From sequence record MZ436830.1: DNA of 64,000 bases. The stretch is one strand, 5' to 3'. This DNA comes from Escherichia phage JK1. This document shows, piece by piece, positions 1 through 6,712 of the stretch. Numbering within the stretch: the stretch's first letter is position 1; each line of letters opens with the position of its first letter. The notes below the pieces were generated by a model, which was not told where the DNA came from, did not search any database, and was given only the letters and a program-made list of their open reading frames with translations. The translations under genes were made by a program, and so were the position numbers.

Positions 1-281
1 AAGCAAAATACAAATGATGTCACAGGAAAACTAATAATGTACCACAGAATCATAATTTTATCTGTGAACCAATCAGCATTTGTTAACTTAGCACGACCAT
101 TATGAATACACACGAATTTATCATCTGTTATAATAGATGGCTTAGCTGCTTGATATCCCATTCTAAACTCCCTAATCAACAAATTTTTCATATCTTCGGA
201 ACAACCATTCCAGTCAACTCTATTAACTGAAATGCCATCATCCCCATCATCTAAATCATACCAGCGAGTTTTTAAAATCAT
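1..281 (-). CDS. hypothetical protein, partial (N-terminal part; gene continues past window start)
   Basis: ATG at 281..279 overlaps the stop of the 278..640 ORF (ATGA); open minus-strand frame runs to position 1 (MILKTRWYDLDDGDDGISVNRVDW...). Absent from ORF track because no stop lies in the window. Confidence 0.4.
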   Translation of the reverse strand, partial: MILKTRWYDLDDGDDGISVNRVDWNGCSEDMKNLLIREFRMGYQAAKPSIITDDKFVCIHNGRAKLTNADWFTDKIMILWYIISFPVTSFVFC

Positions 282-640
282 TTAATTTTCCTACAATCAC
301 TCACAAACTCTTCCATTGATTCTTTTTCAATATAAGACATGTAGCTATTATATTCCTTTAATTGTATTTTGTAATCCTTTTTTCTTTGCCAATTTATTTT
401 AAAATTATCATAATGAAAATATAACATGGTACCAAAGAATGAAAATAATGAAATAATTTTAGTATAGTGAAGTTCACTCCAAACTTCTATTATATTTACT
501 GTGCCGTCAATGTTTAAAATAAGACAGTCAATTAACAATCCAAAAAGACTACCCGCAAGAGCTGCAGCCAACGCTACAGCAAAAATTAAAAATGACTCAG
601 GAAGAGAATATTTGACTTTATTTAGTTTTGGCTTTTGCAT
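278..640 (-). CDS. hypothetical small membrane protein (one hydrophobic helix)
   Basis: ORF track 120 aa; hydrophobic stretch SFLIFAVALAAALAGSLFGLLI; overlaps upstream gene by 19 nt, suggesting translational coupling. Confidence 0.5.
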   Translation of the reverse strand: MQKPKLNKVKYSLPESFLIFAVALAAALAGSLFGLLIDCLILNIDGTVNIIEVWSELHYTKIISLFSFFGTMLYFHYDNFKINWQRKKDYKIQLKEYNSYMSYIEKESMEEFVSDCRKIK

Positions 641-1014
641 CGTGATTCCTTAACAAATTTCATAATTTCATCAAATTCATGCGCAGCAAGTTTAAGCTGA
701 TGTTCCTTTTTAATCTTTTTACACTGAGCTTTCCAATCACGTACACGTTTACGATAGTGTCTTCCTTGATACCAGTATCCTATCCAATTTATAGGTACTA
801 ATAAAAGCGGAACTACCAATGGAAGAATTAGTGTTGCTCCAAATATTGCACCAGATTCAATATCAGTCATAACGTCTATAACTATTCCAGCAATCAGCAG
901 AATCACAAATGATACGGCTACCACAGGACCTATTAATACATCAGTAGGAATTAGCTGACGTTTTAGTTCATACTTCACAGGTTCACTTGGAAGGTATAGT
1001 GATGGCTTTGACAT
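622..1014 (-). CDS. hypothetical membrane protein (two predicted TM helices)
   Basis: ORF track 622..1035; start chosen at internal Met (MSKPSLYLP...) to reduce overlap with upstream gene; hydrophobic segments VVAVSFVILLIAGIVIDV and ATLILPLVVPLLLVPI. Confidence 0.45.
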   Translation of the reverse strand: MSKPSLYLPSEPVKYELKRQLIPTDVLIGPVVAVSFVILLIAGIVIDVMTDIESGAIFGATLILPLVVPLLLVPINWIGYWYQGRHYRKRVRDWKAQCKKIKKEHQLKLAAHEFDEIMKFVKESRCKSQN

Positions 1015-1588
1015 ATTCTCTACATTCCTTAACAAATTTTTCTAATAATAAATCGCTTTCAAAATTAGGATTTTCTACGAATTTATCAAAAAGATCATCA
1101 ACAATAGTTAAGATATTCTTTTTACTAAGAATACGTTTATTTTCATGCTTCGTTTCAGAATCAACTATAAGAGTAAAGAAATATTTCTTGCCCTGAAATT
1201 TTACAGTAGTATCAATATAGAATAAATTTGACTTTTGTAAATTACGTTTAAACCATGCATCACTTAAACTATAAACGCCAAGATAATCATAATCGTCGTT
1301 TAAATAACAGACCGTCCATTCAGGAGAAACAAAATCAGTAAATTCAACGTCAAAATCGCATGTTAATAAATGAATTGATTCAATACTGTTAATAAGTATT
1401 CCAGGACGTATTAAAGACTTTTTACCTTTATAAAATCCAGAAAGACTTTCATCAGTTTCATATGAAGAACCCCAATAATAATTACGTCCTTCTGCCATAC
1501 GTTTAAGAGCATTTAATAATTGGTCTGGAACATCAACCTGTCTTTGGAACTCTTCAAACATTGAATTGAAATCACTTTGCATTTTCAT
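983..1588 (-). CDS. hypothetical protein
   Basis: ORF track 201 aa, same strand and tight spacing as neighbours; no recognisable motif. Confidence 0.5.
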   Translation of the reverse strand: MKMQSDFNSMFEEFQRQVDVPDQLLNALKRMAEGRNYYWGSSYETDESLSGFYKGKKSLIRPGILINSIESIHLLTCDFDVEFTDFVSPEWTVCYLNDDYDYLGVYSLSDAWFKRNLQKSNLFYIDTTVKFQGKKYFFTLIVDSETKHENKRILSKKNILTIVDDLFDKFVENPNFESDLLLEKFVKECREYVKAITIPSK

Positions 1589-1606
1589 TCCTACTTACTT
1601 CAAGTA

Positions 1607-1626
1607 ATAGGGGCCGAAGCCCCTTA
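1607..1626 (-). terminator. GC hairpin GGGGC-CGAA-GCCCC immediately after the stop of the 1630..2223 gene
   Basis: Perfect 5-bp GC stem with tetraloop at 1610..1623; the same AGGGGCCGAAGCCCCT motif recurs at 41688 and 62402. Confidence 0.45.
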
Positions 1627-1629
1627 TCA

Positions 1630-2223
1630 TTATTTCAGAGAATTAATGTATTCCTGAACATCGGCAGAGGTAGTTTCAACCCCAGAAATATTGCCATTAA
1701 AGGTTTCAACTCGAGCAAGAGTATCTTCAATATCAACCTTAGTCAGTGCTGCAATTTCAACTACATCATCAGCAGTACTAATTCCGAGGGCATTCGCGGC
1801 GCGAGTTTCACGGATATATTCCAATTTAACTGCAAGTTCTTGGCGAGCATCATCTAACTCAACTACTTTCTTGGCGATTTCAATTCGCATTTCAGCATAA
1901 CCATCAGCTTTAGTAGTCAACTGCTCAGCTGTTCGACGATATAGTAAACCAAGTTTAGCATGCATTGTTACATCTTGACCTTCAGAAAGAAGCTTGCGAA
2001 TTTCACGCTCTTTTGATTCGGCCTGTCGATTCTTTTCGACAATAAGTTCACGAATACGTTTTTCTTCATTAATAGATTTAACAGAAGCAGTTTTTAGATC
2101 TTTAATCTTATCAAGTAGTTTTGCTGCCGCAGCAGTATACTGTTCTTCAACAGATAAATTTTTAGCCATAGCAGAACCAAGTTTAGTGCGAATAAACTCA
2201 ACAATTTTCTTCAGCATGTTCAT
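1630..2223 (-). CDS. hypothetical coiled-coil protein (weak PspA/IM30-like resemblance)
   Basis: ORF track 197 aa, charged/Ala-rich helical heptad character throughout ([27 protein letters not shown]...); canonical early promoter upstream at 2269..2298. Confidence 0.5.
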
Positions 2224-2268
2224 AGCATTTCCTTTAGTTAATTAAGGGTTTTTATAATCCGTGGGAGT

Positions 2269-2298
2269 ATTATACTCTACTCCCAAGAGTTTGTAAAC
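2269..2298 (-). promoter_or_regulatory. T4-type early promoter (GTTTAC-N18-TATAAT) for the 1630..2223 gene
   Basis: Minus strand reads GTTTAC (2298..2293), 18-nt spacer, TATAAT (2274..2269); -10 box lies in inverted repeat GGGAGTA/TACTCCC (2263..2284). Confidence 0.6.
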
Positions 2299-2631
2299 TT
2301 ATTCTTCGTCCAATTCATCAATAAATTTATCGATACTACTATTAATAGACTCATCGATGATTAACAAAGCATCATCATCCATAATATTAATATTTTCTAA
2401 AGCATCAATATAAGCTTGATTGACTATAGACCATGCCCTTTGAAAATATGGGGCTTCATCATCAGGACTGAACCAACGTACACCTTCAAAGATACGTTTG
2501 GCATAATCTAACACCCATTGTACAGGCATGTTTTGAGAACGTTCGTTAAACTCTTTAAAGTCCTTAGATTCAAAAAGCTCTTCAGGATAATAATTTCTAT
2601 TACAAAAAGCTTTACTAAAGTTACGTTTCAT
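2299..2631 (-). CDS. hypothetical protein with acidic C-terminus
   Basis: ORF track 110 aa; early-promoter-like element immediately upstream. Confidence 0.5.
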   Translation of the reverse strand: MKRNFSKAFCNRNYYPEELFESKDFKEFNERSQNMPVQWVLDYAKRIFEGVRWFSPDDEAPYFQRAWSIVNQAYIDALENINIMDDDALLIIDESINSSIDKFIDELDEE

Positions 2632-2657
2632 AATGTTCTCCTCAAAGTTATAGGCTC

Positions 2658-2687
2658 ATAATATCTCAATCATGAGCCTGTGTAAAC
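2658..2687 (-). promoter_or_regulatory. T4-type early promoter (GTTTAC-N18-TATTAT) for the 2299..2631 gene
   Basis: GTTTAC at 2687..2682 on minus, -10 TATTAT at 2663..2658; -10 flanked by 8-bp inverted repeat AGGCTCAT/ATGAGCCT (2652..2679). Confidence 0.55.
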
Positions 2688-2963
2688 TTATTTCATATTA
2701 TTGAAATATTCTTCTGCGATTTCATCGTTATCATGGTAAACTTTAGAAGACAGTTTAACATAACCTTCTGCTGTGAACATATTAATCACAACCTTTACAG
2801 TATACCACTGACCATCTTCATTACCCATTACTGCGTAAGTTTCAAACATCGGATGGTCAGGACCGATAACTTTAATATCATTCACTGTACGACCAAAATC
2901 TTCTGAAACACATTTCATAAAGAAGTTGAACAGTTCGCCGTAATTATCCATTTCATTCTCCAA
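2688..2963 (-). CDS. hypothetical protein
   Basis: ORF track 91 aa; early-promoter-like element upstream at 2995..3024. Confidence 0.5.
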   Translation of the reverse strand: MENEMDNYGELFNFFMKCVSEDFGRTVNDIKVIGPDHPMFETYAVMGNEDGQWYTVKVVINMFTAEGYVKLSSKVYHDNDEIAEEYFNNMK

Positions 2964-2994
2964 GTTGTTTTCTGTATCAGTAGTTGATAGTTGT

Positions 2995-3024
2995 ATAGTA
3001 CCATGGAAGGGTAAGGATGTAAAC
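2995..3024 (-). promoter_or_regulatory. T4-type early promoter (GTTTAC-N18-TACTAT) for the 2688..2963 gene
   Basis: GTTTAC at 3024..3019 on minus, TACTAT at 3000..2995. Confidence 0.5.
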
Positions 3025-3135
3025 TGTTTTGTGAAAAAAATTTTTAAAAAGTTTTGGGGAATTCTAGGGCAGGGAGGGGCAATTAAAAGATAGGATAATA
3101 TATTATAAAGGATAGAAACTAAATGATGTCTAGAG

Positions 3136-3186
3136 AGGCCCGGAAAGGCCTAGATACCAAAAAGCCCCAACCTTTTGGTCGGGGCT
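3136..3186 (-). terminator. tandem hairpins plus U-run after the 3194..3655 gene
   Basis: AGGCC-CGGAAA-GGCCT (3136..3151) then AGCCCCAACC-TTTT-GGTCGGGGCT (3163..3186); minus-strand RNA has the hairpin followed by UUUUU. Confidence 0.55.
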
Positions 3187-3193
3187 AAGAATG

Positions 3194-3655
3194 TTATTTG
3201 ATTTGTTTAGCAGACCAAATGCGATCTTTAATAATTTTTTGGATGTCTTCAACATACTCTAGGTCATGAGCATGTGGATTATCTTTGAAACTATGAGCTC
3301 GCGCAAGTTTCTGGCCTTCGGTCTTAATTATCAAAAGTTCTTTAAGAATTGCTTCATACCTAGAGATAATTCCTTTAGCAATATTTTTTTCTTGTGCTGC
3401 TTTAGGGTCAGCCTTAGGAGCAGGTTTACCAGAAGGTTTTTCGAAAGCCGCACCAGTAGCAACCAGGCTTTTCCAGGCGGTGGTAACATAGTTACCCACA
3501 AAGCCTTCAGCTCTCATATCGTCATAGAACTTGTACCGAGATTCGTCAGAAGCATCTTTATAAGAATATTTACCAGCTTTAATAGCAGCAGTTGCTACAG
3601 CGCGAACATCTGAAGCGGATGCTTCGGTCATTAAAAATTGAGCATAAGTTTTCAT
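3194..3655 (-). CDS. capsid-targeted internal-protein-like protein with divergent CTS (MKTYAQFLMTE)
   Basis: ORF track 153 aa; N-terminus resembles T4 internal-protein capsid targeting sequence MKTYQEFIAE with an L-x-E gp21 cleavage motif; late promoter TATAAATA 30 nt upstream; Lys/Ala-rich body. Confidence 0.55.
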   Translation of the reverse strand: MKTYAQFLMTEASASDVRAVATAAIKAGKYSYKDASDESRYKFYDDMRAEGFVGNYVTTAWKSLVATGAAFEKPSGKPAPKADPKAAQEKNIAKGIISRYEAILKELLIIKTEGQKLARAHSFKDNPHAHDLEYVEDIQKIIKDRIWSAKQIK

Positions 3656-3683
3656 TATTATTTCCTGTGTTAATTAACTCATC

Positions 3684-3691
3684 TATTTATA
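3684..3691 (-). promoter_or_regulatory. T4 late promoter TATAAATA for the 3194..3655 gene
   Basis: Plus strand tatttata is the reverse complement of TATAAATA, about 29 nt upstream of the ATG at 3655. Confidence 0.6.
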
Positions 3692-3721
3692 CCAAAAAGC
3701 CCCAACCTTTCGGCTGGGGCT
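3692..3721 (-). terminator. rho-independent terminator at the end of the tRNA/stable-RNA transcription unit
   Basis: AGCCCCAACC-TTTC-GGCTGGGGCT hairpin; minus-strand RNA has the hairpin followed by UUUUU; near-identical copy at 3157..3186. Confidence 0.6.
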
Positions 3722-3772
3722 AAGCCTTGCGGCAACCTTGTCGGGGTTCCACCTGCTAAGGCAAGTGTTTGT

Positions 3773-3864
3773 ACGAAACGCCGGGATTCGAACCCGGTTA
3801 TTAAGTAGTTGACGCTACTCAATATTTTTAAAAGGCCATATCTCGACCATATCCGAACGTTCCG
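3773..3864 (-). ncRNA. tRNA-like small stable RNA (possibly equivalent to T4 RNA C/D); 5' boundary uncertain
   Basis: Perfect T-arm CCGGG-TTCGAAT-CCCGG (3781..3797 rc) and a 7-bp acceptor-like pairing (3774..3780 with 3858..3864), but no canonical D or anticodon arm could be folded. Confidence 0.35.
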
Positions 3865-4035
3865 TCAAAAACGCTACTCGGCTTATGGCAAAGATATTTC
3901 CTCGAATCGATAATTCGGTGCGCCGTTTCTGCTGTGATGTAAGAGGGCATCAATAAACGTAAAGATTATTAACGCAATTCCTTACTCAGGGAACATCAGT
4001 CCGACGACTTGCCGGTAGCGACCCGGCTTCTTGTC

Positions 4036-4111
4036 TGGTCGAGGCAGTAGGGATCGAACCTACGACCCAGGACTTAGAAGGTCCTTGCTCTTCCTTCTGA
4101 GCTATGCCTCG
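4036..4111 (-). tRNA. tRNA-Arg (anticodon UCU)
   Basis: Cloverleaf folded by hand: acceptor CGAGGCA/TGCCTCG, T-arm GTAGG-GATCGAA-CCTAC, anticodon loop CTTCTAA, CCA encoded. Confidence 0.85.
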
Positions 4112-4115
4112 TATT

Positions 4116-4190
4116 TGGCGGACGTGATAGGATTCGAACCTATAACCAATCGCTTAACAGGCGATCGCTCTGCCATTGAGCTACACATCC
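4116..4190 (-). tRNA. tRNA-Asn (anticodon GUU)
   Basis: 5' GGATGTG-TA-GCTCAATGGCAGAGC D-arm, anticodon loop CTGTTAA, T-arm with TTCGAAT loop, CCA encoded. Confidence 0.8.
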
Positions 4191-4194
4191 AAAT

Positions 4195-4281
4195 TGGTGG
4201 GGAGTGGTGGAGTCGAACCACCCGAGTCGCAATGACAATGGATTTACAGTCCACACCGCTACCTCTACGGGATAACTCCCC
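4195..4281 (-). tRNA. tRNA-Tyr (anticodon GUA), type II with long variable arm
   Basis: 87 nt; acceptor GGGGAGT/ACTCCCC, anticodon loop CTGTAAA, variable-arm hairpin, T-arm GGTGG-TTCGACT-CCACC, CCA encoded. Confidence 0.7.
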
Positions 4282-4290
4282 AAATTAATT

Positions 4291-4365
4291 TGGTGGCCCT
4301 GGGTGGAATTGAACCACCATCTGGCGATTATGAGTCGCTTGCTTGAACCTTCCAGCTACAGGGCC
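4291..4365 (-). tRNA. tRNA-Ile (gene anticodon CAU; AUA-decoding type as in T4) or tRNA-Met
   Basis: Acceptor CAGGGCC/GGCCCTG, anticodon loop CTCATAA, T-arm GGTGG-TTCAATT-CCACC, CCA encoded; Ile assignment by analogy with T4. Confidence 0.7.
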
Positions 4366-4366
4366 T

Positions 4367-4442
4367 TGGTGCTGATTGACGGAATCGAACCGCCGACCTT
4401 CTCATTACAAGTGAGTTGCTCTACCTACTGAGCTAAATCAGC
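4367..4442 (-). tRNA. tRNA-Thr (anticodon UGU)
   Basis: Acceptor GCTGATT/AATCAGC, anticodon loop CTTGTAA, CCA encoded. Confidence 0.85.
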
Positions 4443-4447
4443 AAAAC

Positions 4448-4537
4448 TGGCGGAGGCGATAGGATTTGAACCTATGAGTCGCCGGAGCGACTGCCGGTTT
4501 TCAAGACCGGTGCATTAAACCACTCTGCCACGCCTCC
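4448..4537 (-). tRNA. tRNA-Ser (anticodon UGA), type II
   Basis: 90 nt; GGAGGCG-TG-GCAGAGTGGTTTAATGC D-arm, anticodon loop CTTGAAA, long variable arm, T-arm ATAGG-TTCAAAT-CCTAT, CCA encoded. Confidence 0.85.
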
Positions 4538-4539
4538 AG

Positions 4540-4613
4540 TCTCCATACAAGGATTTGAACCTTGGACCTCCTGATCCCAAATCAGGCGCTCTACCAAACT
4601 GAGCTACACGGAG
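4540..4613 (-). tRNA. tRNA-Pro (anticodon UGG)
   Basis: 5' CTCCGTG-TA-GCTCAGTTTGGTAGAGC, anticodon loop TTTGGGA, T-arm CAAGG-TTCAAAT-CCTTG; no encoded CCA. Confidence 0.85.
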
Positions 4614-4623
4614 TAAATTAAAT

Positions 4624-4697
<74 letters not shown>

Positions 4698-4702
4698 AAA
4701 TT

Positions 4703-4789
4703 TGGTGCGAGAAGTGGGACTCGAACCCACAAGGAAATCATTCCGCAGCATTTTAAGTGCTGTGCCTTTACCAATTTGACCATTCTCGC
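4703..4789 (-). tRNA. tRNA-Leu (anticodon UAA), type II
   Basis: 87 nt; acceptor GCGAGAA/TTCTCGC, anticodon loop CTTAAAA, T-arm GTGGG-TTCGAGT-CCCAC, CCA encoded; 1 nt from tRNA-Gln. Confidence 0.85.
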
Positions 4790-4790
4790 G

Positions 4791-4863
4791 CTGGGAATAA
4801 AGGACTCGAACCTTTGCATCCTGGAATCAAAATCCAGTGCCTTACCAACTTGGCTAATTCCCA
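4791..4863 (-). tRNA. tRNA-Gln (anticodon UUG)
   Basis: 5' TGGGAAT-TA-GCCAAGTTGGTAAGGC, anticodon loop TTTTGAT, T-arm AAAGG-TTCGAGT-CCTTT; no encoded CCA. Confidence 0.85.
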
Positions 4864-6382: not shown

Positions 6383-6412
6383 ATAGTATCACTACCCTAT
6401 CTAAAAGTAAAC
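6383..6412 (-). promoter_or_regulatory. T4-type early promoter (GTTTAC-N18-TACTAT) for the 6169..6354 gene
   Basis: GTTTAC at 6412..6407 on minus; -10 lies inside perfect 9-bp inverted repeat GATAGGGTA/TACCCTATC (6374..6401). Confidence 0.55.
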
Positions 6413-6682: not shown

Positions 6683-6712
6683 ATAGTATCACTACTAAAA
6701 CCCCATGTAAAC
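6683..6712 (-). promoter_or_regulatory. T4-type early promoter (GTTTAC-N18-TACTAT) upstream of the IP gene
   Basis: Shares the 24-bp sequence TTGATAGGGTAATAGTATCACTAC with the element at 6372..6395. Confidence 0.5.

What the first reader, a model, noticed from the sequence alone, without database searches (positions are those of the whole stretch)
278..2298. Early-promoter-driven accessory cassette: coiled-coil (PspA-like?) protein plus two small membrane proteins
A canonical T4 early promoter at 2269..2298 drives a 197-aa all-helical, charged coiled-coil protein, followed after a GC hairpin by three tightly overlapping genes, two of which encode small predicted membrane proteins. I do not recognise any of them as T4 core genes. 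Size, heptad character and a KLxxxRExRAxNAL-type segment recall the PspA/IM30 membrane-remodelling family, though the resemblance is weak. An early-expressed membrane-associated module of this kind is a typical shape for superinfection exclusion or anti-defence functions.
Basis: partly seen in the sequence, partly recalled or inferred. Interest (0 to 1): 0.5.

Follow-up and report, generated by a model that had tools for sequence, protein, structure and literature searches.

The report
T4 e.6 PspA-like membrane gene cassette
This is the e.6–e.3 gene block of a T4-like phage: e.6 is a divergent viral relative of the bacterial membrane-repair protein PspA/Vipp1 (noted twice in print, never tested), and the genes after it share a short C-terminal motif that I found no mention of in the searches I ran.

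Summary
On the minus strand, a TTTACA-N17-TATAAT early promoter (2297..2269) precedes a 197-aa all-helical protein (1630..2223). A GGGGCTTCGGCCCC hairpin follows, then three overlapping genes. Two of these encode N-in/C-in two-TM proteins.

These four genes are T4 e.6, e.5, e.4 and e.3; e.6 is 99% identical to T4's. So they are known conserved T4 accessory ORFs of unknown function, not a new cassette.

- A profile of 39 diverse e.6 relatives hits Vipp1 in the PDB (E=1.3e-4, colinear from residue 1).
- hhalign against PspA gives 89% probability.
- Two Ackermannviridae family members pass Pfam's PspA_IM30 cut-off.
- The AlphaFold model shows α0 plus a hairpin plus α4 and α5, and its top ten PDB Foldseek hits are all Vipp1.

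This homology was already noted in a 2021 genome announcement and a 2022 paper. I found no experiments.

Possibly new: every gene directly downstream of e.6 in nine Straboviridae genera ends with a cytoplasmic [FW][IV]xx[C/Φ][RK] motif, conserved at the amino-acid level. I infer a phage PspA-type membrane-maintenance module with its own anchors or adaptors. The function is untested.

The parts
2269..2297 (-). Early sigma-70-type promoter of e.6 (TTTACA-N17-TATAAT). It is a PeSL-type composite element.
   Evidence: 11/12 match; consensus found 5 times against 0.4 expected, all on the minus strand; consensus taken from PMC4122927.
2263..2284 (-). Stem-loop GGGAGTA...TACTCCC embedded in the promoter and overlapping the -10 box.
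   Evidence: -14.0 kcal/mol for the 46-nt context. It matches the promoter-plus-stem-loop (PeSL) architecture described for T4-type phages.
1630..2223 (-). e.6: a 197-aa PspA/IM30 (ESCRT-III superfamily)-like protein with an α0 amphipathic helix, an α1-α2/3 hairpin, and α4 and α5.
   Evidence: T4 e.6 orthologue, 99% identity; model, Vipp1 top hits; profile evidence; α0 hydrophobic moment 0.47.
1609..1624 (-). GC hairpin with a UUCG loop just after the e.6 stop codon. It is probably a leaky terminator or an RNA-stabilising 3' structure.
   Evidence: It is identical in T4. No promoter-like site lies between it and e.5.
983..1588 (-). e.5: a soluble, acidic 201-aa protein (199 aa if the second ATG at 1582 is used). 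Its C-terminal helix carries FVKECR.
   Evidence: (phrog_2607).
622..1014 (-). e.4: a 130-aa N-in/C-in two-TM hairpin protein with a basic cytoplasmic tail ending in FVKESRC.
   Evidence: (phrog_2604).
278..640 (-). e.3: a 120-aa N-in/C-in two-TM hairpin protein with a cytoplasmic tail ending in FVSDCRKIK.
   Evidence: (phrog_2330).
1..281 (-). N-terminal 93 codons of an e.2-variant gene, cut by the window edge. The full-length orthologue in AR1 is 162 aa, has a TM segment and ends in FITECRKLK.

Best explanation
The cassette is the e.6-e.5-e.4-e.3(-e.2) early transcription unit of a Tequatrovirus.

Shown: e.6 is a divergent member of the PspA/IM30/Vipp1 branch of the ESCRT-III superfamily.

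Inferred: e.6 is made early and without host involvement. It binds the cytoplasmic face of the inner membrane through its basic amphipathic α0 helix. It polymerises through its α1-α2/3 hairpin and so stabilises or repairs the energised membrane of the infected cell. This would matter because T4 shuts off host transcription, which I take from general knowledge, so the host psp operon probably cannot be induced.

Inferred: the downstream proteins all carry a cytoplasmic C-terminal [FW][IV]xx[C/Φ][RK] helix. They comprise soluble e.5 and the two-TM hairpins e.4 and e.3, plus the e.2 variant, which has one clear hydrophobic segment. They would act as phage-specific anchors, adaptors or regulators of e.6. 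This is analogous to PspB/PspC for PspA or LiaI for LiaH, but the proteins are not homologous to them.

The selective benefit would be keeping the proton-motive force up. Candidate stresses are injection damage, superinfection, holin accumulation during lysis inhibition, and membrane-depolarising abortive-infection effectors.
For: Orthology:
- AR1 and T4 annotations, with 83-99% protein identity.
- PHROG families hit at E of 1e-60 to 1e-108.

PspA homology:
- A profile of 39 e.6 relatives against PDB sequences places Vipp1/PspA in 8 of the top 9 hits. The best is E=1.3e-4, aligned 1-146 to 1-147.
- hhalign against a small PspA/Vipp1 alignment gives 89.4% probability, E=2e-6, over 168 colinear columns. 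This includes ARVETF aligned to ARFESF.
- Five of the 39 members hit PF04012. P0066 (39.0 bits) and P0065 (35.1 bits) exceed the 33.9-bit cut-off.
- Both are full-length e.6-family members (E=1.5e-20 and 8e-22). The phage May orthologue of P0066 matches e.6 at BLASTP E=1.7e-13.
- The AF2 model (pLDDT 75; 90 or more across the hairpin) has helices 3-22, 25-80, 86-145, 165-175 and 186-196.
- The top ten Foldseek PDB hits are all Vipp1, followed by CdvB2, PspA and Snf7.
- BFVD returns Snf7 and PspA/IM30-annotated viral proteins after the e.6 family itself.
- The α0 hydrophobic moment is 0.47, against 0.42-0.49 for E. coli PspA.
- Independent published HHpred results: 99.9% to 4WHE for an e.6 homologue (PMC7862958), and phrog_1203 called a PspA homologue (PMC9409062).

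Module:
- No promoter lies between e.6 and e.5, and the genes overlap.
- All 20 examined proteins directly downstream of e.6 in 9 genera carry the loose motif, encoded with varied codons.
- The strict motif appears in 2 of 108 window ORFs (e.5 and e.3 only). It appears in 13 of 191 ORFs in nine other loci, all of them in the e.6-downstream run.
- The C-tails are cytoplasmic by the positive-inside rule.
- Ackermannviridae PspA-like genes are also followed directly by membrane proteins.
- e.6 is the most conserved gene of the block: 99% identity to T4, against 78-94% for four of its five neighbours; e.8 is also 99%.
Against: - T4-type e.6 alone gives no Pfam or NCBIfam PspA hit.
- hhalign against a single PspA sequence gives only 27% probability.
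- Coiled-coil composition can inflate such scores.
- No membrane binding, oligomerisation or phenotype has been shown for any e.6 protein; I found no experimental paper.
- The e.4 and e.3 type proteins show no homology to PspB, PspC or LiaI.
- TM partners are absent from the Pseudotevenvirus, Slopekvirus and Biquartavirus loci, so membrane anchors are not obligatory.
- The Ackermannviridae neighbours lack the motif.
- A physical interaction between the motif and e.6 is entirely inferred.
- The e.5 model is of low confidence and has no informative structural neighbour.
Confidence: 0.55

Rival explanations
1. Dedicated counter-defence. e.6, with or without its partners, specifically neutralises abortive-infection systems that kill by depolarising the inner membrane, such as Rex-like or TM-effector systems. 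It would not be a general housekeeping membrane protector.
For: This was proposed for the same PHROG family (phrog_1203) by Gendre et al. 2022 (PMC9409062). The gene has its own early promoter and lies in a hyperplastic accessory region rich in PeSL elements. It is patchy in Kuttervirus, present in 4 of 15 genomes according to that paper.
Against: No experimental support was found. Within Tequatrovirus the gene is near-universal and highly conserved: 1,091 phage records carry a near-full-length copy, and identity to T4 is 99%. That pattern is more typical of a general function than of a strain-specific arms-race gene. The cassette proteins were not scanned against the PADLOC defence-system library, so that check is missing.
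Confidence: 0.2
2. Interference with the host Psp system. e.6 would mimic PspA in order to bind host PspF, PspB/C or PspA. It would act as a decoy or dominant-negative subunit rather than working on the membrane itself.
For: The alignment with PspA covers the α1-α2/3 hairpin. From my own knowledge, not tested here, this is the part of E. coli PspA crystallised in 4WHE and reported to contact PspF. Distant paralogues of polymer-forming proteins often co-assemble.
Against: T4 shuts off host transcription early (general knowledge), so silencing σ54/PspF-dependent transcription would add little. e.6 retains an amphipathic basic α0 helix and α4-α5, which are features of an effector rather than only a regulator. 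Identity to E. coli PspA is only about 14%. The gene comes with its own conserved partners.
Confidence: 0.1
3. The membrane proteins act on their own, for example in superinfection exclusion or immunity like T4 Imm/Sp, or in lysis timing. e.6 would merely be co-transcribed, and the shared C-terminal motif would reflect serial duplication or shuffling rather than a common partner.
For: Small early two-TM proteins are the typical form of phage exclusion factors (general knowledge). The region is a hyperplastic zone where PeSL-mediated shuffling is documented. e.4 and e.3 resemble each other only weakly (BLASTP E=0.074). Copy number varies from 0 to at least 4 between genera.
Against: The motif is conserved with different codons across nine genera and on unrelated N-terminal domains, both soluble α/β and two-TM. 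In the loci examined it occurs only downstream of e.6. That argues for a shared constraint tied to e.6 rather than mere common ancestry.
Confidence: 0.15

Closest known systems
PspA / IM30 (Vipp1) / LiaH family, Pfam PF04012, the bacterial branch of the ESCRT-III superfamily
   Same: It has the same helix order: an amphipathic α0, a long α1-α2/3 hairpin, then α4 and α5. The alignment is colinear from residue 1. Motifs are shared: HAKLGLL with DLARAAL at the start of α2, ARVETF with ARFESF in α4, and an ExxxxLK-type C-terminus. Size is similar (197 against 222 aa). The gene sits directly upstream of small membrane proteins, as in pspABC and liaIH.
   Different: Identity to E. coli PspA is only about 14%. 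T4-type sequences fall below Pfam thresholds. The protein is about 25 residues shorter and lacks the Vipp1 α6 extension. It is phage-encoded and driven by a σ70-type early promoter rather than σ54/PspF. Its partners are unrelated to PspB, PspC, PspF or LiaI. No biochemical data exist.
T4 e.6 / phrog_1203 (for example Klebsiella phage Metamorpho gp163 and Salmonella phage SeF3a Gp_125)
   Same: It is the same family and a direct orthologue: 99% identical to T4 e.6, with the same neighbours e.7 and e.5-e.3 and the same hairpin.
   Different: There is nothing substantive at the level of e.6. This phage carries the long e.2 variant and an extra 153-aa ORF upstream, both as in AR1/RB32 and unlike T4.
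PspB/PspC and LiaI membrane partners of PspA/LiaH
   Same: These are small inner-membrane proteins encoded next to the PspA-like gene, with cytoplasmic tails available to dock the soluble effector.
   Different: No sequence similarity was detected. e.4 and e.3 are N-in/C-in two-TM hairpins with a distinct [FW][IV]xxC[RK] C-terminal motif that is also present on the soluble e.5. From my own knowledge, not tested here, PspB and PspC are single-pass proteins.
PeSL (promoter-early stem-loop) elements of T4-type phages (Arbiol 2010; Comeau 2014)
   Same: The e.6 and e.7 promoters match TTTACW-N17-TAYWAT and contain a stem-loop. They lie in a hyperplastic region.
   Different: The stems here (GGGAGTA/TACTCCC and GGCTCAT/ATGAGCC) are more GC-rich than the AGNA-loop-TCNT form quoted for the PST/T4 pair.

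Membership tests
PspA/IM30 (PF04012) | Significant match of the protein itself to the Pfam PspA_IM30 model | tested here: not met
   The window e.6 gives no PF04012 hit at E<=1 and no NCBIfam PspA/LiaH hit.
PspA/IM30 (PF04012) | Homology to the family shown by family profiles or transitive links | tested here: met
   The A2 profile hits PDB Vipp1 at E=1.3e-4. hhalign gives 89.4% probability and E=2e-6. Family members P0066 and P0065 exceed the Pfam cut-off and are linked to e.6 at E=1e-20. Published HHpred gives 99.9%.
PspA/IM30 (PF04012) | ESCRT-III-type fold: an α1-α2/3 helical hairpin followed by α4 and α5 | tested here: met
   The AF2 model has helices 25-80, 86-145, 165-175 and 186-196, with hairpin pLDDT of 90 or more. 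The Foldseek PDB top ten are all Vipp1 (E=3e-4 to 7e-2), followed by CdvB2, PspA and Snf7. This is a prediction, not a solved structure, and α4 has low pLDDT.
PspA/IM30 (PF04012) | N-terminal amphipathic helix α0 for membrane binding | tested here: met
   Residues 3-22 are helical in the model, though at low pLDDT. The hydrophobic moment is 0.47, comparable with PspA at 0.42-0.49. Basic residues are K5, K6, R12, K14 and K21.
PspA/IM30 (PF04012) | Self-assembly into rings, rods or carpets, and membrane stabilisation or remodelling | not testable with these tools
   This needs purified protein, EM and liposome assays. No literature data were found.
Canonical Psp or Lia operon (pspABC, liaIH) | Neighbouring genes homologous to PspB, PspC, PspF or LiaI | tested here: not met
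   Pfam scans of e.5, e.4 and e.3 and of ten related downstream proteins found no PspB, PspC or LiaI-type family.
T4 e.6-e.3 gene block (phrog_1203, 2607, 2604, 2330) | Orthology and synteny with T4 e.6, e.5, e.4 and e.3 | tested here: met
   PHROG E-values range from 1e-60 to 1e-108. The order and overlaps are the same as in T4 and AR1. Identities are 99, 94, 83 and 88%.
PeSL composite promoter/stem-loop | TTTACW-N17-TAYWAT with an associated stem-loop, located in a hyperplastic region | tested here: met
   with the consensus taken from PMC4122927.

The most novel reading that the evidence does not exclude
T4-like phages carry a self-contained viral PspA/ESCRT-III-like membrane-repair system. 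In this reading the e.6 polymer is recruited and regulated by a previously unrecognised class of partners: two-TM hairpins and the soluble e.5 family, all sharing a C-terminal [FW][IV]xxC[RK] docking helix. The system would keep the infected cell's membrane energised, for example during lysis inhibition, superinfection or attack by pore-forming abortive-infection effectors.
Probability: 0.3. Interest if true: 0.75.

Novelty: already known. Interest (0 to 1): 0.45.

Why it matters
PspA takes its name from phage shock, yet the best-studied lytic phage appears to carry its own PspA-like gene, conserved at 99% identity within its genus. No function has been assigned to it in anything I found.

If e.6 really is a membrane-maintenance effector, it would show that large lytic phages bring their own ESCRT-III-type repair machinery. 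That would make sense because they probably prevent the host from inducing its own.

It would also give a genetically tractable minimal PspA system of about 200 aa with small dedicated partners. And it would assign a function to five 'hypothetical' T4 ORFs.

The shared C-terminal motif offers a concrete, testable handle on how such polymers are recruited. For this genome scan the practical message is narrower. The cassette is a known T4 block and its PspA likeness has already been pointed out, so the value lies in the follow-up experiment rather than in discovery.

Tried and rejected
- Single-sequence Pfam and NCBIfam scans of e.6 gave only sub-threshold coiled-coil noise.
- The first, less diverse profile (A1) gave only E of about 1 to Vipp1. 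Adding distant members (A2) was needed.
- hhalign of A2 against a single E. coli PspA sequence was weak, at 27% probability.
- A database search with E. coli PspA returned only relatives of 86% identity or more among the rows listed. The PspA profile used is therefore shallow, and the true probability is likely higher.
- The afdb50 fold library was not available.
- Paralogy of e.4 and e.3 is not established (BLASTP E=0.074).
- No Pfam family was found for the small TM proteins.
- Several literature searches for experimental work on e.6/e.5/e.4 found nothing beyond two bioinformatic remarks. One search was wasted on 'nude' mice.
- A 2025 review of bacterial ESCRT-III does not mention phage-encoded members.
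- The GenBank labels 'host specificity protein' and 'tail completion protein' on e.6 homologues have no support in any analysis here, and I reject them.
- I considered whether the C-terminal motif is just the Shine-Dalgarno sequence of the next gene. I rejected this because the codons vary, the AGGA falls at different motif positions, and in RB43-type proteins the motif lies 25 residues from the stop.
Full report
**Identity of the region**

The window is a Tequatrovirus (T4-like) genome segment. Bases 1-4000 match 725 phage records. The best are vB_Eco_QOTSP and RB27 at 96-97% identity over the full length. In the annotated relatives AR1 and T4, the four minus-strand ORFs of the finding are e.6 (1630..2223), e.5 (983..1588), e.4 (622..1014) and e.3 (278..640). 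Protein identities to T4 are 99, 94, 83 and 88%. Each matches one PHROG family of unknown function: phrog_1203, 2607, 2604 and 2330. Reading in the direction of transcription, the block is preceded by a 10-tRNA cluster (4036-4863), a 153-aa ORF, e.8 and e.7. It is followed by an e.2 variant that runs off the window.

**Check of the observation**

The promoter is real and better than chance. It reads TTTACA-17-TATAAT at 2297..2269 and is the best site in 1-4200. The T4/PST early consensus TTTACW-N17-TAYWAT, taken from PMC4122927, occurs five times in the window against 0.40 expected. All five are on the minus strand, and three lie in front of e.8, e.7 and e.6.

Both the e.6 and e.7 promoters contain a stem-loop (-14.0 and -16.8 kcal/mol for their contexts). 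They are therefore PeSL-type composite elements, as described for hyperplastic regions of T4-type genomes.

e.6 has a good ribosome-binding site. It is followed by a GGGGCUUCGGCCCC hairpin that is identical in T4. On the minus strand this hairpin lacks a U-tract that passes the terminator rule, and no promoter-like site lies between it and e.5. The genes e.5, e.4, e.3 and the e.2 variant overlap by 32, 19 and 4 nt. The simplest reading is one early transcript from the e.6 promoter with partial attenuation at the hairpin. That reading is an inference.

e.4 and e.3 each have two hydrophobic segments. Their K/R distribution (4 / 0 / 15 and 4 / 0 / 10 for N-tail / loop / C-tail) indicates N-in/C-in hairpins with basic cytoplasmic tails.

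**Is e.6 PspA-like?**

On its own the protein gives only coiled-coil noise in Pfam and NCBIfam. The family is compact. An exhaustive HMMER search of 1.8 billion representatives finds 47 proteins; the full-length ones are about 195-210 aa and the rest are shorter fragments. A tblastn search finds 1,099 phage records, mainly Straboviridae.

Several independent lines then connect the family to PspA/IM30:

- A profile of 39 diverse members (A2) searched against PDB sequences returns Vipp1/PspA for eight of the nine best hits. The best is E=1.3e-4, aligned from residue 1 to about 147 of both proteins.
- Five of the 39 members hit PF04012. P0066 (39.0 bits) and P0065 (35.1 bits) pass the curated 33.9-bit cut-off. 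Both are full-length e.6-family members (E=1e-20 to 1e-22). P0066 comes from Ackermannviridae-type phages, and its closest match in the phage collection is Klebsiella phage May (Taipeivirus) and relatives. The May protein aligns with window e.6 at BLASTP E=1.7e-13.
- hhalign of A2 against a shallow PspA plus Vipp1 alignment gives 89.4% probability and E=2e-6 over 168 colinear columns. These reach α4, where ARVETF of e.6 aligns with ARFESF of PspA.
- The AlphaFold2 model (mean pLDDT 75; 90 or more across the hairpin) shows helices 3-22, 25-80, 86-145, 165-175 and 186-196. This corresponds to α0, α1, α2/3, α4 and α5. Foldseek against the PDB ranks ten Vipp1 structures first, followed by archaeal CdvB2, PspA and Snf7.
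- Against predicted viral structures, the e.6 family is followed by a giant-virus Snf7 protein and an Acinetobacter-phage protein annotated PspA/IM30.
- The N-terminal helix is basic and amphipathic, with a hydrophobic moment of 0.47 against 0.42-0.49 for E. coli PspA.

I conclude that e.6 is a divergent member of the PspA/IM30 branch of the ESCRT-III superfamily. My confidence in the homology itself is about 0.9.

**Prior knowledge**

The homology is not new. The genome announcement of Klebsiella phage Metamorpho states that gp163, a homologue of T4 e.6, aligns with E. coli PspA (4WHE_A) at 99.9% in HHpred (PMC7862958). Gendre et al. 2022 call a phrog_1203 protein of Salmonella phage SeF3a a PspA homologue and propose an anti-Abi role (PMC9409062).

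A 2025 review of bacterial and archaeal ESCRT-III does not mention phage copies. I found no experimental study of e.6, e.5, e.4 or e.3. Many GenBank records label e.6 homologues 'host specificity protein' or 'tail completion protein'. Nothing here supports those names.

**The downstream genes**

Comparing loci from nine Straboviridae genera did reveal something. The genera are Tequatro-, Roskilde-, Jiaoda-, Winkler-, Teguna-, Pseudoteven-, Slopek- and Biquartavirus, with T4 and AR1 also examined within Tequatrovirus. Every protein encoded in the run directly after e.6 carries a [FW][IV]xx[C/Φ][RK] motif. It lies at or within about 11 residues of the C-terminus, except in the RB43 type where it is 25 residues from the end. 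Examples are FVKECR, FVKESR and FVSDCR in the window, and FINMCR, FIKYCR, WIRSCR, FIKECR, FISECR, FVTYCR, FIHSCK and FVDYCR elsewhere.

The motif sits on unrelated N-terminal parts. These are soluble e.5-like proteins of 93-315 aa and small two-TM hairpins. The codons differ (TTT/TTC, GTT/GTG/GTA/ATT/ATC/ATA, TGT/TGC, and six Arg codons), so selection acts on the peptide.

The strict form occurs in the last 35 residues of only 2 of 108 window ORFs, namely e.5 and e.3. It occurs in 13 of 191 ORFs in nine other loci, and all 13 lie in the e.6-downstream run. The full-length e.2 variant, present in AR1 and begun in this window at 281, also ends in FITECRKLK and has a TM segment. T4's own e.2 is a truncated form that lacks the motif.

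In the e.5 model the motif lies in the terminal helix 180-195. In e.4 and e.3 it is cytoplasmic, the same compartment as e.6.

TM partners are absent in the Pseudoteven-, Slopek- and Biquartavirus loci. In Ackermannviridae the PspA-like gene is followed by two membrane proteins that lack the motif.

**Mechanism**

The homology, the architecture, early-promoter control, co-transcription and the motif are shown. The rest is inferred.

I propose that e.6 acts like PspA or Vipp1. It would bind the inner membrane through α0 and polymerise through the hairpin to limit proton leak. This would replace a host response that the phage probably blocks through transcription shut-off, a point I take from general knowledge. 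The motif-bearing proteins would be its anchors, adaptors or regulators. They would be functionally analogous to PspB/C or LiaI but not related to them.

The rivals are:
- a dedicated anti-Abi role (Gendre et al.);
- decoy or dominant-negative interference with the host PspF/PspBC/PspA system;
- independent exclusion or lysis functions of the TM proteins, with the motif being a relic of duplication.

The strong conservation of e.6 favours a general role over an arms-race gene, but this is weak evidence. e.6 is 99% identical to T4, against 78-94% for four of its five neighbours; e.8 is also 99%.

**Verdict**

However, the cassette is the known T4 e.6-e.3 block, and the PspA likeness has already been published. 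The finding is therefore not novel as such.

Two things remain open and interesting. One is the untested function of a phage-encoded ESCRT-III/PspA homologue in a model phage. The other is the shared C-terminal motif of its downstream genes, which I found no mention of in the searches I ran and which suggests a dedicated partner system.

Noticed in passing
window 278-1588 (-); also L006-L013 downstream of the e.6 homologues: All genes directly downstream of e.6 (e.5, e.4, e.3 and the e.2 variant) end with a [FW][IV]xx[C/Φ][RK] motif. So do their counterparts in nine Straboviridae genera. The motif is encoded with varied codons and was found nowhere else among 108 window ORFs or 191 ORFs of nine other loci.
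   Followed up: yes
window 1-281 (-): The gene after e.3 is the long e.2 variant, which is 162 aa in AR1 with a TM segment and the FITECRKLK tail. T4's e.2 (102 aa) is a truncated form lacking the TM and motif end. The window cuts the gene after 93 codons.
   Followed up: partly
window 2658-2686, 2995-3023, 6383-6411 and 6683-6711 (-): Four further exact matches to the T4/PST early-promoter consensus, all on the minus strand. The one before e.7 contains a GGCTCAT/ATGAGCC stem-loop, which makes it PeSL-like.
   Followed up: partly
window 3163-3721 (-): A 153-aa basic ORF (3194..3655, phrog_2280) is bracketed by two nearly identical terminator hairpins, AGCCCC(A/G)(G/A)CC(G/A)AAAGGTTGGGGCT-TTTTGGTAT, at 3698-3721 and 3163-3186. 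It is present in AR1 (where the annotation says it best matches an RB32 protein) but absent from T4. It looks like an inserted cassette with duplicated terminators.
   Followed up: no
window 4036-4863 (-): The tRNA cluster has 10 genes: Arg, Asn, Tyr, Met, Thr, Ser, Pro, Gly, Leu and Gln. T4 has 8. Here Asn, Tyr and Met are extra, Ile is missing, and no segB or segD homing-endonuclease gene interrupts the array.
   Followed up: no
GenBank records of e.6 homologues: e.6 homologues are widely annotated 'host specificity protein' (ACLAME 1259) or 'tail completion protein'. These labels conflict with the PspA-like fold and look like propagated misannotations.
   Followed up: no
L003 6742-8124; L005 4001-5381: In Ackermannviridae (Taipeivirus, for example Klebsiella phage May) the PspA-like gene passes Pfam's PspA_IM30 cut-off. 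It is followed by a 185-aa N-terminally anchored membrane protein and a 60-aa membrane protein, neither of which has the Straboviridae motif.
   Followed up: partly
window 1630-2631 (-) compared with T4: Conservation is very uneven within 1 kb. e.6 is 99% identical to T4 while the adjacent e.7 is only 78% and e.4 is 83%.
   Followed up: partly
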